Shown: positions 2,085-64,000 of the stretch, piece by piece
How positions within the stretch are numbered: the first letter of the stretch is position 1
Layout: the number at the start of each line of letters is the position of its first letter
NCBI GenBank assembly: GCA_020137815.1
Contig: CM035350.1
Location: 6,386,001-6,450,000 of the forward strand
Reading direction: 5' to 3'
DNA length: 64,000 nucleotides
Source: Hormiphora californensis
Taxonomy: Eukaryota; Animalia; Ctenophora
Program-made: the position numbers and the translations under genes
Notes under the pieces: model-generated
Databases searched by the model: none
What the model saw: the letters and a program-made list of their open reading frames with translations, nothing else
Told to the model about the DNA's origin: nothing

Positions 2085-2210
2085 CACAGTACTTAGTAGT
2101 TTGTAGCTTCGAGCATGTCTCTCTGGTTCAATTCCGGGTCAAACCCAGTATTTTTCTGTTTTCTTCCCTATTTAATTCTTTACTACTTGCTCAGATCACA
2201 TTCAGAATGA
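2085..2210 (+). repeat. Diverged, internally deleted solo copy of the tRNA-like unit found in the 59.6-64 kb array
   Basis: cgagcatgtctctctggttcaattccgggtcaaacccagtatttttt...tcttccctatttaattctt matches the reverse complement of the array unit. Confidence 0.8.
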
Positions 2211-5656: not shown

Positions 5657-7345
5657 AGAAGCTCATTCATTGAACCACAACATCGTCTTTCCTAAGCTTT
5701 TCCTTTTTTCATCCCATTATTTTCTTTTTTCTTTGAGTTGCTATTTATAACGATAGTAACGGGCGTACTTTAAATTCCTGACTCGAAGAAAAAAGAAAAT
5801 ATTAAAACGGGAGAAATTTTGGAATCGGGAAACCGATAAAGAACCAAATAAAACCCGGGGAAAAGCAAAAAAAGGGGAAAGAAAGGTAGGGAGAAAAGGG
5901 AAGTAAGTAGCAAAAAACGAGGAAGAAAAAATTCGGGGGTTATGCTCTCTCCCCTTCCTCTTTCTCTATCTACTTCTCCCTCTCTTCTCTTTCTCTACTC
6001 CCCTTCTCTCACTCTCTCTCTCTCTCTCTCGGTCCACAACACGCACCACTCCCACATGGGGCCGTAAGGTCCCATGTGGAAACAGGGTTAAATCCCCCGA
6101 GCCCGGATCCTGTTGGATCTGAGGGCCCGGAGGGCCTGCGGAGTAAAGGTAGGTAGAACAATGTACATAAGGGTAGGTTGAACAATGTACATATGGGTTA
6201 AAGTAGGAGAAAATATATAAAGGGGAATTAAAGCTCATGGTGACGGAGCAAAAGACCTCCTAAACTATCTGGAAAGAAGCACAACCATCTGGAACGGAGT
6301 CTAAGAAGGGTCAACTTATCAGGAACAGAGGAAGCAAACCGTCTGCATCTAGGGAAACCTAATGGCAAGCAGGAACGGGTAGAAAGGTATAAATATAAAT
6401 AAATTAATTAATGTCGAGAACTTTCCGGAGCGTGTTCATCGAGTTGAACAGGACTGACTTTTGGAGCTGGGAGGGGTAGATTTGGCGGGTTATGGCAGTC
6501 AGGTACTTCTCCAGTCGGGGGCTGACTCCGCCAAGGGCTCCGATCACGATAGGGATGACCGTGGCCTTTTTAAGTTCCCAAATTCGTGTGAGCTCCCTCC
6601 GAAGTTCTTGGTACTTCTCGATCTTATCTGTCTCCCTGTCCGAGACTGACCTGTCTTTTGGTACAGCGACGTCGATCAGTAGCGCTTCCTTCTTTAGTTT
6701 GTCTAGAAGGACCAAGTCAGGTTTACATGCCTGGATGGGGTTGTCCGTCTGTATGTGGAAATCCCATAGGATCTTGTAGTTCTCATTCTCAAGCACTTTT
6801 TCTGCATAGTGGCTCCACCACTTTGATTCAGCAGGAAATCCGTAAGTCCTTGCACATTCCCCAGTGGTAGGGCGGCAGCTACTCGATCGTGTCTGTGCTT
6901 GTAGTCTCCGTTGGCGAGTTTCGTGCATCCGTTTAGGATGTGTTCCACCGACTCGTTGTGTTCGTTACAGATACGGCACTTCTCAGTCACTCCTTTGCTC
7001 TTTCTCTATGGCAGCTTCTTATCCAGTTCGTGCGAATGGCTTGATCCTGGGCAGCAAATACATCGGCCTTCGGTATATCTGCTGAGGCTCTCTTTGTTGA
7101 GCCAGGCCCAGGTCGAATCAGGGTCGCATCCCCCTTCTTCCAGTTGCTTCAGGAATCTTCCATGTAGCACTTTGCTCTTCCATTTCTCTACAAGTTCCGC
7201 CTCTAATCTTTCCTTCAGGGCTTCTGCGTCTTCTGGAGGTCCAGTTAGCATATCCTCAGTCTGCATCGCCGTGTGGAGGGCACGTATCCTGGGGTCCGTA
7301 GAATTGTTGAAGAATGTCACGAGTCCTGTCTCTTCCTTTGCAATG

Positions 7346-11009: not shown

Positions 11010-12845
11010 TCACATCAGCACGTCCACCTTGACCTTATACCCGACACAGTTGCCCCCTCCCTGTAGACAAGAATCCACTGTCGTATCTGGCTGCATGCAC
11101 GTCTCAGAGTACGGGACAGCACAACCCACGACCTCAGCCCAACAGTTGTAATAGGGCCAATCGTAGTAAGTACACCTACATGCGGTACCGGCGGGTGCAG
11201 GACTAGACACCACGCACCCCTGCCTCTTCTTCTCGCACTGACATGTCTGGGGATAGGCCCCACAGGAGCCACCACCCTCCAGACAGCTGCTAATACTGGT
11301 ATCCGGGTCTGTACATGTAACTGCGTCATCGTGCCTACAGGACACAATGGTCCCCCTGCACGTCCACGCTCCCATGTAGTCACATCTACATGCAGTTCCC
11401 GCTGGGGCGGCTTTAGTTACCGTGCACCCTCCAGCTCCGTAGGTACACTCACAGGTCACATCGTTGTAACCCCCACAGTCACCCTTCCCTTGGAGACAAC
11501 TGTAGATGGACTTATCAGGGATGGAACAGTGGACTGAGAATGGATCCCGGCACTTGGTCACAGTTCCACTGCACATCCAAAACTCGTCGTAGGAGCACTG
11601 GCAAGCGTAGCCGGGTGGGGCAGGTGTGTACACGGTGCATCCCCCTAGAGAGTACTCACAGTCACATGACAACTCTGGCTTGTAGTAACCCCCGCAGTCT
11701 CCCCCACCTTGGACGCACGAGAATATGGATTTATCGGGGGTCTCACAGTGGTCACTCTCGTCCTGGTCACATCCCACCACCTGACCCGAACACGCCCAGG
11801 CGCCATCATAAATACACCGACAGGCACTGTAGGCGGGGGCAGGGGTGTAGATGTAACAGCCTCCTGCAGAGTAGCCACAGTCACAAGTTCCAATGTCTGT
11901 TATCGGCATGATGTCCATATCATATCCTCCGCTGTACACAATGGGTTGGGAAGGGGCGGTGAAGATCATGTTGGGGCGTGCCAGAGTTAGTCCCTTCCGG
12001 GCCACCCAGTCCAACATAAGGTGTATAAAGTTGGTGATCATGCCCCGTGCTCCAGCGATATAGTATTCCTCCCAGCTTGTCTCGCTGTCCACTGTCCAGG
12101 CAATCACATCGGAGAGGTAACCCCGTGCCTTGTTAACCGCTCCCAGGGTCGTATCCCAGTAGTACTGGGTGGGCGAGCAGGCAGTGAGGCCGATAGAGAA
12201 CATCTTATTAGGGTAGTCCAACTTGACCATCCTGTTTATTGCCCCGAGGGTGGTATCAAACATGTCATAGGTCACATAGATCTGTGAGATCCAGTTTGAT
12301 CGGAGTGCCCGGTCCACCACCGCATCTAGGTAAATATCAGAACCAACACCGATCAGGACCTTACCATGGTACCCCTTGCTAAACAACTCCCGTTCCATGG
12401 CCTCCACCACCTTCTCACCGGCCAGTGCCTGGACCCTGTCGGACAGTCCAGGGATCTTGCTGTCTATGTAGATCAGGGCCAGTCTATCCACTGCCTTGTC
12501 CGCCATTATAGCCCCAAACACCTTCTCATGTCGGACATGTCCGGTACAGACCCCATTAAAGTCACACACACTCCCCCCGAACATGTTGAGATAGCAGGTA
12601 CAATCACAGGGTAAACCATGGTGAGCAGTAGTCATCTCCCCTGTCTGGCCATGGAACTGTACATCAATCTCAATGGCATTCACACCGGATCTCAGGGCCC
12701 ATTTGGCAATCTGTGGGTTGTTCACCATATGGGCGATGACGTAGAAATCCCGGTTACCGGAAGCCCCATATCCCCCTCCCTCAACAGCCTCGTGACCAAT
12801 GGCCACGTGATACAGGGCTAGAAGTATCAGCAGATGAAGGTTCAT
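11010..12845 (-). CDS. Secreted GDPD-like sphingomyelinase D / phospholipase D (sicariid-toxin family) with four C-terminal 10-Cys repeats; coding region intronless
   Basis: Signal peptide MNLHLLILLALYHVAIG; catalytic motifs IAHMVN, NAIEID, HHGLPCDC, YIDSK, AWTVD, GMITN; four ~68-aa repeats CxC...GGC...AP...ACxC...WxC...C...C..PD...SC..GGGxCxxY. Confidence 0.92.
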   Translation of the reverse strand: MNLHLLILLALYHVAIGHEAVEGGGYGASGNRDFYVIAHMVNNPQIAKWALRSGVNAIEIDVQFHGQTGEMTTAHHGLPCDCTCYLNMFGGSVCDFNGVCTGHVRHEKVFGAIMADKAVDRLALIYIDSKIPGLSDRVQALAGEKVVEAMERELFSKGYHGKVLIGVGSDIYLDAVVDRALRSNWISQIYVTYDMFDTTLGAINRMVKLDYPNKMFSIGLTACSPTQYYWDTTLGAVNKARGYLSDVIAWTVDSETSWEEYYIAGARGMITNFIHLMLDWVARKGLTLARPNMIFTAPSQPIVYSGGYDMDIMPITDIGTCDCGYSAGGCYIYTPAPAYSACRCIYDGAWACSGQVVGCDQDESDHCETPDKSIFSCVQGGGDCGGYYKPELSCDCEYSLGGCTVYTPAPPGYACQCSYDEFWMCSGTVTKCRDPFSVHCSIPDKSIYSCLQGKGDCGGYNDVTCECTYGAGGCTVTKAAPAGTACRCDYMGAWTCRGTIVSCRHDDAVTCTDPDTSISSCLEGGGSCGAYPQTCQCEKKRQGCVVSSPAPAGTACRCTYYDWPYYNCWAEVVGCAVPYSETCMQPDTTVDSCLQGGGNCVGYKVKVDVLM

Positions 12846-13754
12846 GGTAAGATGTGTACTGTGCTCCCCCGGCATATCTCTTAAACGGTATAGAGGCACG
12901 TGAAGAGGTGCTAACTGAATGAGATTGTGTTAACTCACTTTACTTCACTAATTTCTTCATCACGTCCCCCTAGCTCTTAAAATTACTGAGTGTATCTTTC
13001 AGTGTCGGTGAGGGAGGAGTAGCACCAAATTAAAGTTTCGAGGAGCCCTTGTATCACCAACTGTGCCGCCATAACCGCCGTATATGATAGGGAGAAGGCC
13101 AACTATAAATCTGATATACTAATATATAACAATTCATAATACTGTGCCATTACATTTACAAACTGAGGGATTGGAAGCCTCTGAGCACATTTCGTTTGGA
13201 GATCAGCGTGGTGGGAAAAGTTCCTGCCATATCAGACAGCTCGCCGTCGCTAGAACCGGTAACCCTATACCTGCAGGGGTTAGAGATGGCGTTATGCTTT
13301 GTTGTTAACAAGTTATGCTAGAAGTAGAGCTAAGAGTAAGCAGTGAATTAAAGTTGGGGAATATATACATAACAGCATCCCAACAGCATACCTGTGACTG
13401 CACAAAATATGGCCCATCCTTGATCGAATATATTTGTTTGTTGACAGTACCCAAACTCCAGGCCAGATGCATTACTGGGACTGTGGATACTCAACTCACA
13501 GGATTCTAGCACACCGTCACACTGAGGGGAGGAACTGTTTAGGATGGTCTGGTACTGGTATCCCACCCCAAGTTGGGTTCTGTGTGGCAATAAATAAACT
13601 GCCCAAATTAATGATCGAGAAAGACAATTCTAATAAAATCGCCTCTATCGATCATATTTTTATACTGTCTGGCGCCGCCGACCCCATCTGAGCGCACTGT
13701 CAAATCAAATCGAGGTCTGGCACCGCCAGACAGACAACAATGTATAAAATGCTC

Positions 13755-16717: not shown

Positions 16718-21190
<4,473 letters not shown>

Positions 21191-29465: not shown

Positions 29466-32400
29466 AGAGAGAGGGAGAGAGCTAAGTGTTATGCAAGTTG
29501 TGTCACCCCAGGGGGACCCATATTAGAACTAAATGGCATAACATACATATATATGTCACTCGGCTAGAGGACAGTGACTTCCTCAAAGGACATCTTTCCA
29601 CGTAGTAGACCCTTCTTGAGTCCTTCGTCCAACCCCGCTACCAACTTGGTAACGAAATTATCCCCACCCCCATACAGTCTTCGTAATTTTGGTGTGCTTG
29701 CAAGGTAGCTGTTGTAGGAGTAACTTTAACACCAAGCTATACTACCCACTTAGGCCTGGGGCCTGAGCAATGAGTTTACAGCTTCTTAGGAGAAAGAGCG
29801 AACTTTGATATATGAATAGTTGTTCGTTGCACGGATATTAATAATATCATCATCATATTATCAAGGTCGGACTACAGTATGTAATACAGGTGTTTGAGAG
29901 ATACTGATAGCATTGATAGCATTAAAACTTCGTAACTGTCTCGAGATACTTGCTGGGAGAGAGAATATCAATTCAATATCAAAGTCCCATACTGCGTTTT
30001 GCCCCTTTCTGGAACGCGCGAGCTGCAAAGAGTAGTGAGAGTTGCAAGTACAAGCGCTAACTGTAACAGGACGCGCGCAGTGAGGCATGCCAATACTGTC
30101 GATTCGGGAGCTCCAGCCTCCAAGTCCATCGTGGGACCCGTCTAACTAACCAAAGTCTTTTAAATTAGGTTCTTGATTTTAACCAACTCCTCCCCCAGGC
30201 GAACCTGAGTACACTGATGGGTGTGTACTTTCCCTGTCTGCAGAACATTCTCGGTGTGATATTGTTCATCAGGATGCCATGGATTGTAGGCATGGCGGGG
30301 GTCGTTCAGTCACTTTGTATCATTGGAACCTGCTCCCTTGTTGTAAGTATGTATTGGGTTTCAGGGTTTGTGATGTACGGGTACATGTTTCGAGAGAGGG
30401 GGACGGGGGACCTGTTGGCATGTTCCTTGCCTGTCAGCTCTCACACCGGGCCTTCGGCCCGGTGTGAGCTTACGTGAGCCCGAAGTCCGAGGCGCTTAAA
30501 GTGCCGAACAGACAGACTGCGTAGCATGGCAAGGGACCGGGGAAAGGGTCGAGTACGCCACAAAACTAACTCGAATTCCCCAGACGTTCCTGACGGCCAT
30601 TTCAACAAGTGCAATTGCAACAAATGGAGTTGTTCCTGCTGGTGGAAGTTACTTTATGATAAGTCGGGCATTGGGGCCCCAGTTCGGGGGGTCAGTTGGT
30701 ATCATCTTCTTTCTTGGTACATCCTTTGCAGCCAGCATGTACATTACCGGTGCCATCGAGATTCTTCTGGTGGGTTTTATTGCTGCAGTCTGTTTAGTTA
30801 CTACTACCTTTCACTCTACCTAACCTCACTCTACCTTCATTCTACCACCTAGAACACTGAACCCCCCCTGTCCATGACACCTCTCTCCTTCATTTCAGAA
30901 TTATCTGGTGCCCGCGATGAACATATTCCCCAACAAATGGAACAACATGCGCCTCTTTGGGGCGTGCATGCTCGTGCTGATGGTCGGGATCGTAGGGGTC
31001 GGGGTGAGAATCGTAAGTGTATGGGGCTTTGAATATTTTTAGTAGGGTAATAAATGAATTTGGATTTAATATTCTCAGAGATAAAAGCCCCCCCCCCCCT
31101 TAATTTATTTCCTATCTCCTACAGGTTAATAAGCTAGCAACCGTGTTCCTAGCCTGCGTCATCCTCTCCATCTTGTCCATCTGGGTGGGCATCCTGGGCT
31201 CCCTTGGCTCCCAGGAGGTATGTATGATGACCCAGGACACAGCAAATGGTACTGCCCACTTCCTCGCAAGTTACAGTGGGTTAAACTGTACGGATAATGG
31301 AGGGGTGCTCACGGGCGGGCTGACCAAGCTGACAGACGGGGAGAATTTCATGGACAACCTCGGACCGTACTACATGAAAACTGGAGAGGTCGCGCCAGGG
31401 GTGGCAGTTGAAGATAAAGAGTTTGATGTGTATAGTGACCTGACTACCTCCTTTACCATTCTCCTAGCCATCTTCTTCCCCTCCTGTACCGGTATGTTGA
31501 ATCTTAGAGCCCAGGTTTTATACAGACCTATTTCATAGTGTTCAGAGTCTCTCACGCGGCGTCAAATAGTGTGTACTGCAGCAGCAGCCCCAACTTCCTA
31601 TTTAATATATTAATTAATATTAATAATAATTAACTTCAGGTATCATGGCGGGTAGCAACAGGTCGGGTGATCTGGCAAATGCCCAAACGAGTATTCCGAA
31701 AGGTACTCTGGGTGCCCAAGTAACCACCACTATCATCTATCTGGTCACTGCCGTCCTGTGTGGTGCAGCCGCTACTAGAGAAGGTAGGTTCGAAAACTAG
31801 ATGCTTAACTGATCAAGTATAAATAACTGATCAAGTATAAATAACTGATCAAGTATAAATAACTGATCAAGTATAAATAACTGCTAATTCCCACGTTTTT
31901 TCAGTTTTGATAGACAAGTACGGTGACAGCATTAACGGTGGTCTGATCATGTCCCTGATCGCCTTCCCTCACCCCTATGTGGTGCTTATTGGATGTCTTC
32001 TCTCAACAATTGGAGCAGGTCTCCAGTCCCTAGTTGGTGCCCCTCGGCTTCTCTACGCCATTGCCTCAGATGATGTGATCCCTGCAATCAAGTTCTTCGG
32101 TGTTATCAGTGGCAATGGGGAGCCCCTCCGAGCTCTCTTTTGCACATTCTGTATTGCCAGTATTGGTATTGCTATTGGTAACGTGGACTACATCGCCCCG
32201 ATTATCACCATGTTCTTCTTGGTCTGTTATGCGTGTGTAAATCTGGCGTGTACCTTACAGAGCGTCCTAAGGGCCCCCAACTGGAGACCGCGGTTCACTC
32301 TCTACCACTGGAGTACCTCACTCCTAGGTCTCATTCTCTGTCTCACCCTCATGTTTATCAGTAACTGGATGTATGCATTTGTAGCACTGGCCATCGCCGG

Positions 32401-35181
32401 AGCTATCTACAAGTATATTGATTACAAGGGCGCCGAGAAGGAATGGGGAGATGGGATAAGGGGTTTGGAGCTACAGGCAGCACGGTACTCCCTCCTAGCG
32501 GCTGACCACCAGTCTTGTCATGTTAAAAACTGGCGACCTCAGCTTCTCGTTCTGTTGTCGTACAAAGAGAACCTGACCGCTGACAACATCGGACTGCTAT
32601 CCTTTGTGAGGTGCCTGAAACATGGTAATGGGTTGGTAATCGTTGGTACCGTGGTTCCATATGATCTGATCCAGCTGATAGACGATGACAATGTTCTTGA
32701 GAAGCAGAGGAGGTTGCTGAAGGAGGGGTTGAAGACCCACAAACTGGAGGGTTTTATACAGGTGACGTGTGAGGAGAGCATACCCAAAGGGACCACCACC
32801 CTTCTCCAGACTGCAGGACTAGGTGGGCTGAAACCCAACACCATCCTCATGGGCTGGCCTGAACACTGGAAGACAAAGAACAGCTATGAGAATTTCAGTC
32901 GAGTTGTCAGGTTAGTAGTTAGTTTATACCAGTTGTATCCATTACCATGGTTACCAGTTGTTTCCGTTAGTGCTACCATGGTTACCAGTTGTATCGATTA
33001 CCATGGTTACTATGGTTGTTTCCAATGTCATCTACTTTTTTGAGACTTCTCCAACCCTATTTCCAGGTGTGCAAATGTCCTGAATCAATCAGTTCTGGTA
33101 GCTAGGGGAGCTTTCCCCAAACGAAAGGAGAAGTTGGCTGGTTCAATTGATCTGTGGTGGGTGGTGCACGATGGGGGTATGATGTTGCTGCTTGCCCATC
33201 TGATTAGACAACACAAGACCTGGTCCAGGTGTAGACTGAGAATCTTTACTGTTGCTCAGGTGATGATGACAACACACTGACAAAATGACATACTTATATA
33301 ACGACACGTTACTATGGGAACTACTACTACATCAGCAGCACTGACTGAAAAAGGATTGAATCGACACCATGAATGCAGGGTACTACAACTGTAACAACTT
33401 GAACTACGCTAAGACGATGACTGGTCAATCAACCCTCACAATGTGAGGTTCACACCTCAAATTTAGAGTTACTATGGTTACCAAATTTACAGTTAGAAGA
33501 CGACAGCGTGAAGATGAAAAGTGATTTAAAGAAGATTTTGTACGAGCTAAGGATTGATGCAACCGTTCAAGTCATTGAAATGGTATGTGTGCTACCTTTA
33601 TTTACCATGATACCTCTAATATGTAGGTCTTGAAATGAAATGGGCTATTCACTTTATCCCTGCCTTGCTCAACCCTGTTTCACCGCGCCCCGCCCGGAAA
33701 CAAATGTAAAGGAGGGTTAGAACTTAACTTTAACACTCAACAGTGTAACCAAGACATATCAGCGTACACTTATGAACGGACAGTCGGAATGGCGGAGCGA
33801 AACAAGATCATGGAGAAAATGGGACTCACAAAACGGGTAAGTGTGTTTCTGTTAGATGTCCCAACTTAATTGAGTCGCCTGACACTGTGTCAAGACTAAA
33901 AGGTATGAAAAATTCAAATCCCATCCCAAACTTGAAACTCGAACTATCACGGCATCACCCCCCCCCCGCTCTCTCCAGCAACAAAAGAGGACCCTATCCT
34001 TTGTGGTGGACAGTGCCCATACCCCCGGAACGAGCGGGACGGATGCCATTGACCGGGAAACTGATAACAATCACCATGGTTCCTATCACCCGGCCGAAGG
34101 TACTATATTAATAATATACCAGCTGATCTCTTTCTGTTATATTGCATGTCTGCGGGTTGATTGAGCTGTTGCAGGAACCGACCGACACAAGTAAAAAACC
34201 AATCAGAACTCGTTATTTAGGTCACGTGACTGGTTATCAGCCAATCAGGGACCAGTATTTCCTAATTCGGTCGGTTCCTGAGCTGTTGCATGTTTGTGTG
34301 TTGATCTGATTCCACAGCATGTTTGTCAGGATCAGGTGGGGAATTGTCAGGGATTGCAGCACCTGCAGGGGTACAGGGTGATCTATCAAGCCCAGGGTGT
34401 GTTTTGCCAGCCGTTTCCGTGGCAACAGAGGATCTCTCTCATGGCGGTTCTTTACCAGGTGTTCCGGAGGAAGGCCCAGATTCGGAGATGGTAATTCAGG
34501 ATGAGGAGGAAAAAAGTTAGTTTGTGTGAAATTATACACGTGTAGTTATTGAATGTTTGCACGTGCATGCAGGCGCTGCTAATAATAAATCCACATATTT
34601 CATGAACCACGCTAATATGTTTTATCCCTGTTTAGTAAAAGTGAGACATAGTCAGCTGCCCACTGACGCGCTCTTGGCGATGGACACCAGTGTCAAGTTG
34701 AATCGGTTGGTGAAGGAGTATTCAGATTCAGCCTCAATGGTCATGTTGAACATGCCCCCTCCACCCCATTACAAGGACGCTATGACTGGTAAGATAGGGG
34801 GAGAGCAATATATCAGATCTAACTCGTGAACTGTTCATAATTTATTATTTTGGGGGACAAGAACAGCACTGTGATTTGTTTAGATGGTATCAGGATCCAT
34901 TGTTACGTTGGGTCCTTAATAAAACACCCCAACACAGATCAGAACTATGTAGAGTATCTGGATGTGCTGACTGAGGGTCTACCAAGAGTCCTCCTAGTAC
35001 GGGGATCAGGAACAGAGGTGAGTGTGTGATCTACCAATATGTTGTTAGGATACTGAATATGTCCATTAGTTATGCAAATCATGACGGAGAAGAGAATCAT
35101 AAACAGGTCACCATCATCATGATCATTCAGCTACACCATGATTTTAATTTCTTGTTTCAGGTGGTCACCGTGTATTCCTGA
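25561..35181 (+). CDS. K-Cl cotransporter (SLC12A4-7/KCC family), ~16 exons
   Basis: Exons give [127 protein letters not shown] and [15 protein letters not shown]. Exon 1 (25561-25800) appears to need a one-base correction near 25737, so the 5' end is less certain. Confidence 0.93.
34172..34280. mobile_element. hAT-type MITE copy 2, 8-bp TSD AGCTGTTG, in a KCC intron
   Basis: Same TIR and body as 16119-16227 with a different 8-bp TSD. Confidence 0.88.
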
Positions 35182-56921: not shown

Positions 56922-58294
56922 ATGGCGAGGGCACTGCAAAAGCTGCCTGTCATCGCCTAGCTTAGCAGCCTTTCTGCACATTCAGTGAGCGGAATGTTTG
57001 TGGGCAAAGAGAGGGAGAGAAGGGCGAATTCTAGCTGGAATAAAGAATACCTGGTGTGCTTCTACAGTTATAGCCCTACAGGCTCCACAACTCGGTACTA
57101 TTTATTTTTAAAACTCGAGACCCAAGAAGTATACATGCATTGGGCAGTGATTTCAGTGGCGAGGCCATAGCCTGGCAAACTAAGTATTGCAGGAAAAAGT
57201 CAGCTTAAAATACACTCCATATCGTTTCAACCAGCTGAGCACCAATAAAAATCGTCGGTATAGCTATGTTCAAACACTGGTATGTCTCATTGTGGGGTCG
57301 GTTGAGGGTCAGATTGTGCTTCTACTCTGTCAGCTGCCAATGCTCTGACTACTCACCGAGGGAAGCCCACATGTCCTTGAGATCCTTGTCGCTGATGAAA
57401 CCATCCCTGTCCTGATCGATGATTGTGAAGGCCTGAAGAACACCGGTGTTAGAATAAACTCATCCAGGTCTGTTAGAAAAGATGTTTATCTAAAAAGAAT
57501 AAAACATTTCTTGAAGAAAAGAAAACTGCGTTTCAGAATCAGATCAAACACCACTGATCCTAATTTTGTTCTCAGTAGTTCAAGACTTTATATAATATAT
57601 CCTCTTTACCTCTTTGAATTCCTGGATCTGCTGCTGATCGAAGTTGGCGAACACACTGGATCCAGATCGCTGTGGCTTCTTACCCTTGGTCTTGGACTAT
57701 AGTTAAAGTTCGAAGGGTACAAAGGACCGGGGTTGGGGTGCTTCACTCATGCGAATCGTCATGCGACGGTTGCTTTTCATTGGACAAGTGACAGAAGACA
57801 CAATTACACAGGTTGGGTTGACAGTCACATAGTGTCTTCAGGGACAGTTATAATGTGAATGCTTTAATTTCATAAACAGGTCTTTGCTTTGTTAATGATT
57901 TGGTACAAATATGCTAGATATATAATGTTTTCAATTGAGGAATGATGAAAGAGTCTCAAATAATGATGTTCAATTTCTGTATTTCTCTAAGAAGTACAGT
58001 CTCAAGGGAATAACCATGGATGACAAGGCTGTTCATATGATATGTTTTTCAAGGCAAGATCAATGATATCAGTTCTGTTGCCAGCTGCAAGAACACACGT
58101 GTGTCTATGTGATATTTAAGCACAATGATATATTTTACAGAAAAGTAACAGATTTTACCAAAACTGTAGTTGACTTCAGAGGTCGAGAAGTAGTGGAATA
58201 TGATGAATCAGATTTACAATGTTATTTACAGGACAGGGGAAGAAGGATGTTTTTGATTGCTTGACATGCACTGGGTTTAGGTACTTACGGCCAT
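55114..58294 (-). CDS. Myosin regulatory light chain. Exons 58294-58289, 57696-57610, 57432-57357, (56482-56302 or 56130-55950), 55518-55470, 55218-55114
   Basis: [57 protein letters not shown]...INFT.FLTFMG.KL..TD..DVL..AF...LGDRFSKEE...; all junctions GT-AG and in phase. Confidence 0.95.
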
Positions 58295-58718
58295 ATTGAT
58301 GTTTAGGTTGCTCAAAAAGTAGAGAGAAGAAGCACAGCAAAATGTGGACTACAAATTCGTTACTGGAGCAAATATATCAGGTCAATATTTGAGTGAGAGT
58401 TGGGAGAGTCGGAACGGATGTAGTGGCGGTCACGTGTACCATATCACGTGGTCCGTCATTGCGTGACCTATGTCACGTGACTTACCAAGCGCTACAGGAA
58501 GACAGCAATATATTATATTCGTTTAGCTTTTTTCTGCACTCGACTCAACCCAATGTAATTGAGGCTTTCTACTGCCATTGGCCACGGACTTCGAACGCCT
58601 CCTACACAGTCCTGCTGAGGAGGCGTTCCTAGAGAGAAAAAAGAGAGAGAAACTTACTTTTCAGAAAGAGAAAGATAGTGTGAGAGAGAGAGAGAGAGAG
58701 AATGAGAGAGAGAGAGAG

Positions 58719-58769
<51 letters not shown>

Positions 58770-59737
58770 GAGAGAGAGAGTGAGAGAGAGTGAGAGAATG
58801 AGAGAGTGAGAGAGAGTGAGAGAATGAGAGAGTGAGAGAATGAGAGAATGATAGAGAGCTTAGAGAGAGCTTAGAGAGAGCTTAGAGAGAGAGAACTTGC
58901 GTGAGTGTGTTGAGAGGGTAGCAGCTTTCTCTCTGGTGACAAGTACTGTCACCACGCTCCGCTCACACACACTCTTTCTCCCTAGCTTCCACCTAGAAAG
59001 GGATTATAGGGGGTGTCTTGTGTGTAAACAGGGGGTTGGAAGCATTCCTTTCTTTTTTTGGTTGGTAGTGGTATCGAACTCCTAACTTTCTCACTACCGG
59101 ATGCACTGCATGAAATAACATTAGCACTTTCCTTACTCATTAATTCAATTTGTTTGCCCAGCGTGCAGAAAGAGAGGGAGGAGAGAGAGAAAGCACATTC
59201 ACTGCACAAGCCTCTATTTTACCAGTACACGGTACATTAATGGGAAATGGAAACCCTCACCCCAATAAGATTAACCACGTGGTGTAGTCCTGCACGCCAC
59301 CACCCGGCCTTACTGTTGAAGCAAAAACCTTCCACGGAATGTTTGGAACAATTGAGCACAGGTGTCACCAAACGGCAACCGTTAATATCCGTGAACAAAT
59401 CCATATTTAATGTGTTTCTGGCACCCAAGATAGAGCGAATCTGGCTCCACCAGACCCCGTCCGATTCTTAGATCGGGTCGGCACCGCCGGGCCACTCGCC
59501 AGATAGAGATAAGTAGAGCGAATATGGCCGAAATTGAAACAGTCGAAAGATACAGTTTAGGGAAGTAGTTTTGATATCTCCTTCTGGTGATCAACACACA
59601 CACACGCCCTCTGTACAACAGTTTAATGGGGAATCTCACACATACACGGGCAGAACTCGGTTAAGGAGAGATTAATTAGTATTCTGAATAATGAGTTCAG
59701 AGCAAGAATTAAATAGGGAAGAAAATCGAAAAATACT

Positions 59738-59813
59738 GGGTTTGACCGGGAATTGAACCAGGGACCTCCAGAGAGACATGCTCGGAGCTATAAACCACTA
59801 AGCTACCAAACCC
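59738..59813 (-). ncRNA. tRNA-like Pol III cassette (first of 11 copies; others start at 60060, 61152, then every 322 bp)
   Basis: Reverse complement GGGTTTGGTAGCTTAGTGGTTTATAGCTCCGAGCATGTCTCTCTGGAGGTCCCTGGTTCAATTCCCGGTCAAACCC followed by AGTATTTTT: acceptor stem, D arm with GG, A box, B box and terminator; anticodon loop non-canonical. Confidence 0.75.
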
Positions 59814-60183
59814 TATGTACTGATCGCATTTCATCGCTCTATATTCAAGCTCCTGCCCTTAGCTAGACACCATGTGATAAAGGGAAGTAGTTTTGATATC
59901 TCCTTCTGGTGATCAACACACACACACGCCCTCTGTACAACAGTTTAATGGGGAATCTCACACATACACGGGCAGAACTCGGTTAAGGAGAGATTAATTA
60001 GTATTCTGAATAATGAGTTCAGAGCAAGAATTATATAGGGAAGAAAATCGAAAAATACTGGGTTTGACCGGGAATTGAACCAGGGACCTCCAGAGAGACA
60101 TGCTCGGAGCTATAAACCACTAAGCTACCAAACCCTATGTACTGATCGCATTTCATCGCTCTATATTCAAGCTCCTGCCCTTA

Positions 60184-60950
60184 GGGCGCGCACAGACTGT
60201 TCATGCGTGATCATGTCCATGCGTGGACAAGATTTTGATCAAGTCACGCAGACTGTTCAAGCTTGATCATCTGATCAAGCTTGGACAGTAAAAACTGAAA
60301 CTTATTCATATCAGCAAAAACCACTGTACCCGACTAATTTTGATACTCTGAATCACGTAAGCTAGTTTTCAAATCCGTCAGAGGTCAGGAAAGTGTTCTA
60401 ATTGGGCATAATTGGGTCTAATTGACCCCACTTAAAACTTGTCACCTGGAAATAATAGACGCTTATGTGAGGGCACTTTTCCGACTAATTTTGATACGCT
60501 GAATCACATGAACAACTTTCCCACGCCCCCAGAGGTCGGGAAAGTGTCCTAATTGAGTATAATTGGATCTAATTGACCTTAATTGCTCAATTAGGGCATT
60601 TCCCGACCTTTGGGGGCTTGGAAAAGTTGCTTATGTGATTCGGCGTATCAAAATTAGTCGGAAAAGTGCCCTCACGTCATTTCCAGGTGACAAGTTGTAA
60701 GTAGGGTCAATTAGACCCAATTATGCCCAATTAGGACACTTTCCCGACCTCCGAAGGATTTGAAAACTAGCTTACGTGATTCAGAGTATCAAAATTAGTC
60801 GGGTACAGTGGTTTTTGCTTTGATATGAATAAGTTTCAGTTTTTACTGTCCAAGCTTGATCAGATGATCAAGCTTGAACAGTCTGCGTGACTTGATCAAA
60901 ATCTTGCCCACTTATGGACATGATCACGCATGAACAGTCTGTGCGCGCCC
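60184..60950. mobile_element. 767-bp palindromic PIF/Harbinger (Tourist-like) MITE, TSD TTA, interrupting the tandem array
   Basis: TIR GGGCGCGCACAGACTG; TTA at 60181-60183 and 60951-60953. The empty site CCC-TTA-GCT is visible in every other unit. Confidence 0.93.
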
Positions 60951-63900
60951 TTAGCTAGACACCATGTGATAAAGGGAAGTAGTTTTGATATCTCCTTCTG
61001 GTGATCAACACACACACACGCCCTCTGTACAACAGTTTAATGGGGAATCTCACACATACACGGGCAGAACTCGGTTAAGGAGAGATTAATTAGTATTCTG
61101 AATAATGAGTTCAGAGCAAGAATTAAATAGGGAAGAAAATCGAAAAATACTGGGTTTGACCGGGAATTGAACCAGGGACCTCCAGAGAGACATGCTCGGA
61201 GCTATAAACCACTAAGCTACCAAACCCTATGTACTGATCGCATTTCATCGCTCTATATTCAAGCTCCTGCCCTTAGCTAGACACCATGTGATAAAGGGAA
61301 GTAGTTTTGATATCTCCTTCTGGTGATCAACACACACACACGCCCTCTGTACAACAGTTTAATGGGGAATCTCACACATACACGGGCAGAACTCGGTTAA
61401 GGAGAGATTAATTAGTATTCTGAATAATGAGTTCAGAGCAAGAATTAAATAGGGAAGAAAATCGAAAAATACTGGGTTTGACCGGGAATTGAACCAGGGA
61501 TCTCCAGAGAGACATGCTCGGAGCTATAAACCACTAAGCTACCAAACCCTATGTACTGATCGCATTTCATCGCTCTATATTCAAGCTCCTGCCCTTAGCT
61601 AGACACCATGTGATAAAGGGAAGTAGTTTTGATATCTCCTTCTGGTGATCAACACACACACACGCCCTCTGTACAACAGTTTAATGGGGAATCTCACACA
61701 TACACGGGCAGAACTCGGTTAAGGAGAGATTAATTAGTATTCTGAATAATGAGTTCAGAGCAAGAATTAAATAGGGAAGAAAATCGAAAAATACTGGGTT
61801 TGACCGGGAATTGAACCAGGGACCTCCAGAGAGACATGCTCGGAGCTATAAACCACTAAGCTACCAAACCCTATGTACTGATCGCATTTCATCGCTCTAT
61901 ATTCAAGCTCCTGCCCTTAGCTAGACACCATGTGATAAAGGGAAGTAGTTTTGATATCTCCTTCTGGTGATCAACACACACACACGCCCTCTGTACAACA
62001 GTTTAATGGGGAATCTCACACATACACGGGCAGAACTCGGTTAAGGAGAGATTAATTAGTATTCTGAATAATGAGTTCAGAGCAAGAATTAAATAGGGAA
62101 GAAAATCGAAAAATACTGGGTTTGACCGGGAATTGAACCAGGGATCTCCAGAGAGACATGCTCGGAGCTATAAACCACTAAGCTACCAAACCCTATGTAC
62201 TGATCGCATTTCATCGCTCTATATTCAAGCTCCTGCCCTTAGCTAGACACCATGTGATAAAGGGAAGTAGTTTTGATATCTCCTTCTGGTGATCAACACA
62301 CACACACGCCCTCTGTACAACAGTTTAATGGGGAATCTCACACATACACGGGCAGAACTCGGTTAAGGAGAGATTAATTAGTATTCTGAATAATGAGTTC
62401 AGAGCAAGAATTAAATAGGGAAGAAAATCGAAAAATACTGGGTTTGACCGGGAATTGAACCAGGGACCTCCAGAGAGACATGCTCGGAGCTATAAACCAC
62501 TAAGCTACCAAACCCTATGTACTGATCGCATTTCATCGCTCTATATTCAAGCTCCTGCCCTTAGCTAGACACCATGTGATAAAGGGAAGTAGTTTTGATA
62601 TCTCCTTCTGGTGATCAACACACACACACGCCCTCTGTACAACAGTTTAATGGGGAATCTCACACATACACGGGCAGAACTCGGTTAAGGAGAGATTAAT
62701 TAGTATTCTGAATAATGAGTTCAGAGCAAGAATTAAATAGGGAAGAAAATCGAAAAATACTGGGTTTGACCGGGAATTGAACCAGGGACCTCCAGAGAGA
62801 CATGCTCGGAGCTATAAACCACTAAGCTACCAAACCCTATGTACTGATCGCATTTCATCGCTCTATATTCAAGCTCCTGCCCTTAGCTAGACACCATGTG
62901 ATAAAGGGAAGTAGTTTTGATATCTCCTTCTGGTGATCAACACACACACACGCCCTCTGTACAACAGTTTAATGGGGAATCTCACACATACACGGGCAGA
63001 ACTCGGTTAAGGAGAGATTAATTAGTATTCTGAATAATGAGTTCAGAGCAAGAATTAAATAGGGAAGAAAATCGAAAAATACTGGGTTTGACCGGGAATT
63101 GAACCAGGGACCTCCAGAGAGACATGCTCGGAGCTATAAACCACTAAGCTACCAAACCCTATGTACTGATCGCATTTCATCGCTCTATATTCAAGCTCCT
63201 GCCCTTAGCTAGACACCATGTGATAAAGGGAAGTAGTTTTGATATCTCCTTCTGGTGATCAACACACACACACGCCCTCTGTACAACAGTTTAATGGGGA
63301 ATCTCACACATACACGGGCAGAACTCGGTTAAGGAGAGATTAATTAGTATTCTGAATAATGAGTTCAGAGCAAGAATTAAATAGGGAAGAAAATCGAAAA
63401 ATACTGGGTTTGACCGGGAATTGAACCAGGGACCTCCAGAGAGACATGCTCGGAGCTATAAACCACTAAGCTACCAAACCCTATGTACTGATCGCATTTC
63501 ATCGCTCTATATTCAAGCTCCTGCCCTTAGCTAGACACCATGTGATAAAGGGAAGTAGTTTTGATATCTCCTTCTGGTGATCAACACACACACACGCCCT
63601 CTGTACAACAGTTTAATGGGGAATCTCACACATACACGGGCAGAACTCGGTTAAGGAGAGATTAATTAGTATTCTGAATAATGAGTTCAGAGCAAGAATT
63701 AAATAGGGAAGAAAATCGAAAAATACTGGGTTTGACCGGGAATTGAACCAGGGACCTCCAGAGAGACATGCTCGGAGCTATAAACCACTAAGCTACCAAA
63801 CCCTATGTACTGATCGCATTTCATCGCTCTATATTCAAGCTCCTGCCCTTAGCTAGACACCATGTGATAAAGGGAAGTAGTTTTGATATCTCCTTCTGGT

Positions 63901-64000
63901 GATCAACACACACACACGCCCTCTGTACAACAGTTTAATGGGGAATCTCACACATACACGGGCAGAACTCGGTTAAGGAGAGATTAATTAGTATTCTGAA

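What the first reader, a model, noticed from the sequence alone, without database searches (positions are those of the whole stretch)
59559..64000. Homogeneous tandem array of a tRNA-like Pol III unit with a non-decoding anticodon arm
Seen in sequence: each 322-bp unit carries on the minus strand a 76-nt cloverleaf with an 8-bp-capable acceptor stem (GGGTTTGG/TCAAACCC, i.e. an extra G-1:C73 pair), an intact A box (TAGCTTAGTGG) and B box (GGTTCAATTCC), an AT-rich AATATA about 30 nt upstream, and T5 four nt downstream. The anticodon arm is abnormal: one bulged base and loop CATGTCT, lacking U33 and purine 37 (nominal anticodon TGT). I saw only three substitutions among the 11 copies; copies 4 and 6 share a C>T. 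Inference: a recently amplified, concertedly evolving small-RNA gene family with preserved promoter and terminator that probably cannot decode. It could be a tRNA-derived ncRNA, a SINE source locus, or a TFIIIC-binding boundary/satellite.
Basis: partly seen in the sequence, partly recalled or inferred. Interest (0 to 1): 0.8.

Follow-up and report, generated by a model that had tools for sequence, protein, structure and literature searches.

The report
Comb-jelly satellite carrying non-decoding tRNA copy
A 322-base stretch repeated head to tail in what is likely a comb jelly carries a tRNA look-alike with an abnormal anticodon arm; it is likely a passenger pseudogene in a high-copy repeat of a kind already known from newts and frogs, and whether it is made into RNA is untested.

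Summary
In detail: 11 near-identical tRNA-like genes in 322-bp units, intact A/B boxes, a T5 run, an anticodon arm lacking U33 and purine 37, and only three substitutions. The host is likely a ctenophore. The repeat is real and high-copy: public DNA contigs cover the whole unit far deeper than its flank and cross the head-to-tail joint. The gene is not measurably better conserved than the spacer (2 of 76 vs 12 of 246 variable sites, p 0.53). No distant homologue was found. RNA contigs do not show a discrete transcript. The unit has weak MITE-like ends (13 of 18 inverted match between TTA triplets). Best reading (0.6): a tRNA-pseudogene satellite like newt PolIII/TAN or Rana/polIII. An expressed functional non-decoding RNA is not excluded (0.17). 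The scan noted this class of repeat in two other genomes, but not this sequence.

The parts
59559..60183 (.). Left block of the 322-bp array (unit 1, most of unit 2); the left edge abuts unique flank
   Evidence: TRF; unit comparison; this junction is also in a contig of run X5 at depth 160
60951..64000 (.). Right block of the array (end of unit 2, units 3-11, 130 bp of unit 12); runs off the window
59738..59813 (-). tRNA-like gene, copy 1 (G-1 to C73). Other copies: 60060-60135, 61152-61227, 61474-61549, 61796-61871, 62118-62193, 62440-62515, 62762-62837, 63084-63159, 63406-63481, 63728-63803
   Evidence: ARAGORN; Rfam RF00005 34.3-34.4 bits; numbering
59795..59805 (-). A box (positions 8-19; U8, A14, G15, G18, G19 intact)
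   Evidence: sequence
59749..59759 (-). B box (G52-C62; G53, U54, U55, C56, A58, C61 intact); U51-C63 mismatch beside it
   Evidence: sequence
59768..59785 (-). Abnormal anticodon arm: 5 pairs with a bulged U (59770), loop C32 A33 U34 G35 U36 C37 U38
   Evidence: the same loop is in the dispersed copy
59729..59733 (-). T5 run, predicted Pol III terminator
   Evidence: function inferred
59840..59845 (-). TATA-like AATATA, 27-32 nt upstream of G-1, inside the right imperfect inverted repeat
   Evidence: function untested
59560..59577 (+). Left imperfect terminal inverted repeat of the unit (starts GGG; TTA at 59557-59559 precedes it at the array edge)
   Evidence: 13 of 18 match to 59841-59858
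59841..59858 (-). Right imperfect terminal inverted repeat (TTA at 59859-59861 follows, then about 20 nt of linker to the next unit)
60184..60950 (.). 767-bp non-coding foldback element (PIF/Harbinger-type MITE) inserted at the right-hand TTA of unit 2, TTA duplicated
   Evidence: inverted arms of 134 nt (97%) and 141 nt (96%); TAA/TTA as mPing target duplication, PMC10288884 passage
2091..2210 (+). Decayed dispersed copy: 5'-truncated gene with a 10-nt deletion, the same odd anticodon loop, G63 instead of C63, and about 55 nt of 3' spacer beyond T5
   Evidence: blastn 84% over 99 nt, E 6e-27; nhmmer E 5e-18; alignment

Best explanation
The 322-bp unit is a real, high-copy tandem repeat carrying one tRNA-like sequence with an abnormal anticodon arm, and that sequence is likely a tRNA pseudogene carried as a passenger, likely multiplied and homogenised at the DNA level, which would at most yield a short non-decoding Pol III transcript. 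Shown: the anatomy, the homogeneity, presence at high depth in independent DNA, decayed and dispersed copies, and the inserted foldback element. Inferred step 1: a tRNA gene or retrocopy lost its decoding features once, before amplification, because every copy seen has the same loop. Inferred step 2: about 300 bp around it were bounded by TTA-GGG...CCC-TTA ends, possibly an old Harbinger-type MITE, and this plus a 20-nt linker became the monomer. Inferred step 3: unequal exchange or rolling-circle amplification spread and homogenised the whole monomer, which keeps promoter boxes, terminator and spacer alike without selection on the RNA. Inferred step 4: A box, B box and T5 would let TFIIIC and Pol III act on accessible copies; the intact elbow would allow trimming, but the loop would not decode.
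For: The whole unit, not just the gene, is near-identical across 11 copies and is held by DNA runs under three organism labels and in marine metagenomes. Summed contig depth over the unit is about 1,800 times the flank in X5 (medians) and about 360 times a flank piece in X8; even a worst-case 31-fold overlap inflation leaves about 58 and 12 (the tool warns this is no copy number). The head-to-tail joint 59880>59559 is in contigs of X2 and X5. Of 1,799 X5 contigs 701 are under 99% alike and 207 fit only partly; of 509 X8 contigs 322 and 162; many internal deletions cross the gene. Variable sites at 3% or more in X5 or X8: 2 of 76 in the gene, 12 of 246 in the spacer, Fisher p 0.53. The array has C63 where the dispersed copy has G63, which would pair with U51, so the amplified version may carry a decay change. 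No homologue among 3 viral and 54 metagenome loci with the same D arm. RNA contigs of X16 and X20 run through the gene and both spacers at depth 2-4, as carried-over DNA would. Precedent: newt PolIII/TAN, Xenopus OAX, Rana/polIII (PMC10702118 background; PMC12054243 passages).
Against: The damage is concentrated in the anticodon arm while the acceptor stem (7-8 pairs), D arm and elbow residues are intact. The four common gene variants are all structure-neutral: A68>G keeps a U5-G68 pair (22% in X5, 17% in X8), U34>C, G46>A, and a 2-nt D-loop deletion (32% in X8). X20 contig 10 has 7 substitutions; the 5 whose places are listed all lie outside the gene (p about 0.10 if all 7 do). In X15 the three RNA contigs cover only 59717-59811, fully identical, depth 8-16, with no far spacer. 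Several listed contigs start at the gene's 5' end in unrelated flanks, which would fit retroposition of a real transcript (5 of 12 listed ends, 2 of 6 in DNA runs). X5 and X2 are marked as possible sources of this DNA, so only X8 is independent among the laid DNA runs that cover the whole unit. The MITE-like ends are weak: 5 of 18 mismatches, not found by the repeat finder, and X8's junction variant lacks the GGG start.
Confidence: 0.6

Rival explanations
1. A functional non-decoding tRNA-like RNA gene family: Pol III makes a precursor from each unit, RNase P and RNase Z would trim it at the intact elbow, and the array supplies dosage as 5S or tRNA arrays do.
For: Complete type-2 promoter anatomy with T5 and a TATA-like element. 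The cloverleaf is the minimum-energy fold, and leader and trailer add 5 more pairs in the precursor. Common variants are structure-neutral. The same odd loop occurs in all copies and in two deeply covered organism labels. X15 RNA contigs are confined to the gene plus 20 nt.
Against: No significant excess conservation of gene over spacer (p 0.53). No covariation, since only near-identical alleles were found. No distant homologue among 57 loci, though these collections may hold little ctenophore DNA. The G46>A allele in 2 of 11 copies refolds away from the cloverleaf in prediction. T-stem mismatch.
Confidence: 0.17
2. A SINE source or SINE-derived satellite: the tRNA-like head plus about 55 nt of tail is retroposed by a LINE, and the array is one such copy with flanks that went tandem.
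For: Dispersed copy in the window. Contig ends in unrelated flanks cluster at 59800-59818 (5 of 12 listed; binomial p 4e-4, but runs and rows are not a random sample) and at 59680-59700 (23 contigs in three loose-end rows of X8, plus X19). Two X15 RNA contigs join a fully identical head to different 5' flanks.
Against: T5 lies 4 nt after the head and is kept in the dispersed copy, which runs about 55 nt past it, so a Pol III template would need read-through. No poly(A) or simple-repeat tail at that end. The direct repeat around the dispersed copy is not clearly above background (143 of 3,000 random pairs score as high). In DNA runs only 2 of 6 listed 5' ends cluster (p 0.045). Only 13 of 299 loose-end rows and 20 of 2,377 pieces were displayed.
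Confidence: 0.15
3. The array is kept as a TFIIIC-binding chromatin boundary next to an active gene, with the RNA irrelevant.
For: Intact A and B boxes every 322 bp. An EF-hand exon and three clustered CACGTG motifs lie 1.1-2.2 kb from the array edge. That tRNA genes can act as insulators is recalled, from no call.
Against: Nothing tested here bears on chromatin. High copy number and decayed copies fit neutral spread.
Confidence: 0.04
4. An ordinary working tRNA-Thr(UGU) gene array.
For: ARAGORN calls tRNA-Thr(tgt) 11 times. Rfam is above the gathering score (34.4 vs 29). The common variant U34>C would give another Thr anticodon.
Against: 52 of 52 control tRNAs with this D arm have U33 and purine 37; this one has neither. 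Controls score 63-76 bits. Bulged anticodon stem and T-stem mismatch. U34>C is also what CpG decay would give in reverse (inference).
Confidence: 0.03
5. The array is an assembly expansion of one or two copies.
For: Very high homogeneity (3 substitutions in 11 units). The number of units at this locus was not checked against raw long reads.
Against: Head-to-tail joints, depth far above the flank and hundreds of variant contigs, including in run X8, which is not marked as a source. A transposon with target duplication sits in unit 2.
Confidence: 0.01

Closest known systems
Newt PolIII/TAN (Hirt) tandem family, Cynops pyrrhogaster. Seen: description in the background of PMC10702118 and the reference title in PMC12054243; original paper not seen
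   Same: About 360-nt tandem unit with a tRNA-like sequence; described as transcribable in vitro and, by the reference title, derived by retroposition of a tRNA
   Different: Here a 322-bp unit in a likely ctenophore, with a full cloverleaf, T5 right after the gene and possible MITE-like ends; transcription untested; no sequence comparison was made
Xenopus OAX / satellite I and Rana/polIII. Seen: passages in PMC10702118 and PMC12054243; the OAX paper PMC555291 is not held
   Same: High-copy tandem repeats with a tRNA-related segment whose SINE origin is unconfirmed; the OAX reference title says it is transcribed in oocytes
   Different: Rana/polIII keeps only 64% similarity over 64 nt to tRNA; this unit keeps all elbow residues and the acceptor stem
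SINE-derived satellites (sSat1-3) of squamates, PMC10702118. Seen: part 1 of 5 and 12 passages; supplements not read
   Same: Tandem units containing a tRNA-related head, homogenised more in longer arrays
   Different: sSat units are always shorter than their parent SINE and the parent is known; here the unit includes 67 nt upstream of the head and no parent SINE is established
PIF/Pong/Harbinger (Tourist) MITEs, PMC10288884. Seen: 9 passages
   Same: TIR-bounded non-coding element with TAA/TTA duplication: clear for the 767-bp insert, weak for the 299-bp core of the unit
   Different: The unit's inverted ends are only 13 of 18 alike and no free-standing copy with both ends was seen; searches listed no paper describing such an element with a tRNA-like cargo, which is weak evidence of absence
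Cytosolic tRNA (Rfam RF00005)
   Same: Cloverleaf, A and B boxes, elbow residues, G15-C48, T5
   Different: A33, C37, bulged anticodon stem, U51-C63 mismatch, possible G-1:C73 pair; 34 bits vs 63-76

Membership tests
Functional cytosolic tRNA | Cloverleaf with 7-bp acceptor stem and conserved D/T-loop residues | tested here: met
Functional cytosolic tRNA | U33 and purine 37 in a 7-nt anticodon loop | tested here: not met
   A33 and C37; 52 of 52 ARAGORN-called control tRNAs (of 57 loci; viral, prokaryotic or organellar, not ctenophore) have both
Functional cytosolic tRNA | Unbulged 5-bp anticodon stem and 5-bp T stem | tested here: not met
   bulged U at 59770; U51-C63 mismatch
Functional cytosolic tRNA | Covariance score in the range of working tRNAs | tested here: not met
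   34.4 bits vs 63.1-75.8 for the pattern-bearing tRNA in 20 of 57 loci scanned; 52 of all 53 matches in those loci scored higher. tRNAscan-SE was not available
Functional cytosolic tRNA | Expressed, CCA-added, aminoacylated | not testable with these tools
   only contigs of long-RNA libraries were served
tRNA-related Pol III tandem repeats (PolIII/TAN, OAX, Rana/polIII) | Head-to-tail units of a few hundred bp | tested here: met
tRNA-related Pol III tandem repeats (PolIII/TAN, OAX, Rana/polIII) | Non-canonical tRNA-related segment with internal promoter boxes | tested here: met
tRNA-related Pol III tandem repeats (PolIII/TAN, OAX, Rana/polIII) | High genomic copy number | tested here: met
   depth far above flank in X5 and X8; order of magnitude only, tens to a few thousand
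tRNA-related Pol III tandem repeats (PolIII/TAN, OAX, Rana/polIII) | Transcribable by Pol III | not testable with these tools
   promoter anatomy only
tRNA-derived SINE | tRNA-related head with A and B boxes | tested here: met
tRNA-derived SINE | Body, LINE-derived 3' region and simple-repeat tail downstream of the head | tested here: inconclusive
   T5 follows the head directly; no tail at the 3' end of the dispersed copy; no LINE library or genome to compare
tRNA-derived SINE | Many dispersed copies with common 5' end and target duplications | tested here: inconclusive
   5 of 12 listed ends cluster, 2 of 6 in DNA runs; direct repeat at the window's copy matched by 143 of 3,000 random pairs
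PIF/Harbinger MITE (the 299-bp core of the unit) | Terminal inverted repeats | tested here: inconclusive
   13 of 18; reached within 30 nt of the unit end in 0.24% and anywhere in 2.5% of 5,000 shuffles; 5 of 322 rotations reach it, 3 at the array edge; the length 18 was chosen after looking; not reported by the repeat finder
PIF/Harbinger MITE (the 299-bp core of the unit) | TTA/TAA duplication on both sides | tested here: inconclusive
   TTA on both sides of unit 1; TAA before GGG in one X16 contig; AAA inside the array; other flanks at 59559-59563 in X2 and X8 do not clearly show it
PIF/Harbinger MITE (the 299-bp core of the unit) | Free-standing copies with both ends, and a matching transposase | not tested
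   no genome held
PIF/Harbinger MITE (the 767-bp insert) | Long TIRs and TTA target duplication, no coding capacity | tested here: met
   empty site present in the other units

The most novel reading that the evidence does not exclude
A ctenophore lineage has amplified, inside a transposon-like frame, a dedicated non-decoding tRNA mimic: a Pol III RNA that is processed like a tRNA, keeps acceptor stem and elbow under selection, has a remodelled anticodon arm for another partner, and is supplied in bulk by tandem arrays while seeding retrocopies into other transcripts.
Probability: 0.15. Interest if true: 0.7.

Novelty: new member of a known kind. Interest (0 to 1): 0.3.

Why it matters
As a passenger satellite it is a modest addition: by the searches made no such repeat was found described for ctenophores, and it would inflate tRNA-Thr counts in automatic annotation, since ARAGORN and Rfam both call it. 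It is also a clean candidate link between tRNA genes, MITEs, SINEs and satellites, a link the squamate paper calls poorly evidenced. If the RNA proved abundant and conserved, it would be a multicopy non-decoding tRNA mimic in one of the earliest-branching animal groups, which has also lost all mitochondrial tRNAs (PMC4558845 passages).

Tried and rejected
No own genome was held, so no genome-wide census. Rfam found no family other than tRNA above its gathering score; weak miRNA hits fall on the foldback insert and are far below cut-off. An exact 22-nt T-arm/acceptor pattern and a degenerate one found nothing in viral contigs. The D-arm pattern found 3 viral and 54 metagenome loci, none holding the unit. 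The parent isotype could not be fixed: blastn against phages gave only 21-33-nt matches, 7 of 15 under tRNA-Phe, E 0.2 or worse. Resemblances to animal tRNA-Pro (U13-U22, C73) and tRNA-Gly (3' half) are recalled and untested. An intron-containing tRNA was rejected: the arm is only 1 nt longer than standard. A nuclear-encoded mitochondrial tRNA-Trp or tRNA-Met was considered because ctenophores lack mt-tRNAs, and rejected: no UCA or CAU sits in a loop. An 8-nt quadruplet loop needs an A-C mismatch and two G-U pairs and is not the predicted fold. RNA runs X22-X24 held none of the words, which is no proof of absence. Missing spacer cover in X15 is no evidence by itself. No covariance model was built because only near-identical alleles were at hand. 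The Hormiphora genome paper has no mention of tRNA, satellite or SINE in its main text (PMC8527503, term search); its supplements were not read and may bear on this. PMC3313829 and PMC555291 are not held. In the gene-versus-spacer count I dropped three rows (59593, 59595, 59602) that passed 3% only through one old X2 contig, the flank rows, and indels.


Full report
Observation. The array is as described. TRF gives period 322 in two blocks, and ARAGORN and Rfam each find 11 minus-strand tRNA-like genes. Unit-by-unit comparison shows three substitutions: 60034 in the spacer of unit 2, and a shared G46>A in units 4 and 6. A box, B box, T5 four bases after C73 and the TATA-like hexamer 27-32 bases upstream are where stated. 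The predicted fold is a cloverleaf with eight acceptor pairs and a bulged anticodon stem, at -19.2 kcal/mol, no better than shuffles.

Host. The mitochondrial Hsp70 ORF at 16718-18172 is 85% identical to a cluster representative whose named members are Bolinopsis microptera and Mnemiopsis leidyi; named non-ctenophore hits were 73-78%. The host is therefore likely a non-lobate ctenophore.

Can it decode? Unlikely. A D-arm pattern fetched 57 loci; ARAGORN called a tRNA in 52, and all 52 have U33 and purine 37. The pattern-bearing tRNAs of 20 of those loci score 63-76 bits in Rfam against 34 here. These controls are viral, prokaryotic or organellar; no ctenophore tRNA set was available, and the parent isotype stayed unresolved.

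Is the array real and how abundant? Twenty of 24 listed runs hold the gene or part of it, under three organism labels and several marine metagenomes; 7 are marked as possible sources. I laid 4 DNA runs on 59281-59880. X5 gave 1,799 contigs and X8 509, covering the whole unit; X2 gave one contig of the whole unit with its head-to-tail joint; X1 gave one 166-nt piece. Summed depth over the unit was about 1,800 times the flank in X5 and about 360 times a flank piece in X8, or about 58 and 12 after a worst-case correction for contig overlap. The tool warns that this is not a copy number, so I claim only tens to a few thousand copies. X8 is not marked as a source and carries its own alleles, so assembly expansion is excluded. 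Many contigs are diverged, deleted or joined to other sequence.

Is the gene under selection? Not shown. Variable sites at 3% or more were 2 of 76 in the gene and 12 of 246 in the spacer (Fisher p 0.53). There are hints the other way: the four common gene variants (A68>G, U34>C, G46>A, a 2-nt D-loop deletion) break no stem pair, and the damage sits in the anticodon arm while the acceptor stem is whole. Against that, the G46>A allele refolds in prediction, and the dispersed copy has G63, which would pair with U51, where the array has a mismatch. The odd loop is identical in the array and the dispersed copy, and apart from U34>C no variant in it reached 3% in X5 or X8, so it predates amplification.

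Is it expressed? Untested in effect. Four of six RNA holders were laid; all are contigs of long-RNA libraries, which show neither strand nor ends. X16 and X20 run through gene and spacers at depth 2-4, as DNA carry-over from a high-copy repeat would. X19 is patchy. X15 covers only 59717-59811, fully identical, depth 8-16, and two of its three contigs join the head to unrelated 5' sequence, which suggests young dispersed copies inside other transcripts.

How did the unit form? Two leads. First, the unit's core (59560-59858) has 13 of 18 inverted identity at its ends, starts with GGG and lies between TTA triplets at the array edge; shuffles reached this within 30 nt of the unit end in 0.24% of 5,000 trials, though the length was chosen after looking. 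Other flanks meet the unit at 59559-59563 in X2, X8 and X16, and the clear Harbinger-type insert landed on the right-hand TTA; TAA/TTA is the mPing duplication (PMC10288884). The ends are imperfect and X8's junction lacks the GGG, so this is a lead only. Second, contig ends cluster near the head's 5' end (5 of 12 listed; 2 of 6 in DNA runs) and at 59680-59700, as for a short SINE. But T5 directly follows the head, the dispersed copy runs past it, its flanking repeat is matched by 143 of 3,000 random pairs, and only a small non-random part of the tables was displayed.

Comparison with what is known. It works like the tRNA-related Pol III tandem repeats of amphibians: newt PolIII/TAN (about 360 nt, transcribable in vitro), Xenopus OAX and Rana/polIII, as summarised in PMC10702118 (part 1 of 5 and passages) and PMC12054243 (passages). 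It meets their structural features; transcription could not be tested. It fails membership as a working tRNA, and membership as SINE or MITE is inconclusive. Ten literature searches listed no description of this repeat in ctenophores; most subscription papers are not held. The scan's own notes hold two similar tRNA-relic satellites in other genomes and nothing matching this sequence or the insert.

Verdict. A real, high-copy satellite carrying a non-decoding tRNA derivative; likely a passenger (0.6), with a functional RNA (0.17) and a SINE source (0.15) open. New member of a known kind; interest 0.3. Small-RNA data and a search of distant ctenophore genomes would decide it.

Noticed in passing
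window 60184-60950: 767-bp nearly fully palindromic foldback element with nested inverted repeats and TTA duplication; no other copy in the window and no earlier scan note.
   Followed up: partly
window 11010-12929 (-): Intact 639-codon ORF: no Pfam hit, atlas features closest to sphingomyelinase D / dermonecrotic-toxin-like phospholipases D (0.92, 167 of 256 shared), followed by cysteine-rich repeats. That such proteins occur in ctenophores is recalled.
   Followed up: partly
window 57355-57780 (-) and 58431-58479: EF-hand exon (Pfam E 1e-6) and an upstream exon resembling myosin regulatory light chain (name recalled); three CACGTG motifs within 50 bp upstream, about 1.1 kb from the array.
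   Followed up: partly
window 16718-18172 (-) and 31877-33043 (+): Long uninterrupted coding stretches of mitochondrial Hsp70 and an SLC12 transporter.
   Followed up: partly
window 6404-6964 (-): 186-codon frame resembling the C-terminal endonuclease region of site-specific non-LTR retrotransposons (recalled); no Pfam hit.
   Followed up: no
window 59729-59824 (-): In the predicted precursor, leader AGUAC pairs with trailer GUAUU, extending the acceptor stem; a CAGTA direct repeat brackets the gene and could be an old insertion scar.
   Followed up: no
L050:222-271 and L057:701-750: Canonical-looking tRNAs with a CTA anticodon (possible amber suppressors) on two metagenome contigs.
   Followed up: no
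window 59672-59712: Imperfect 17-nt inverted repeat with a 6-bp core hairpin near where many dispersed copies seem to end (59680-59700).
   Followed up: no
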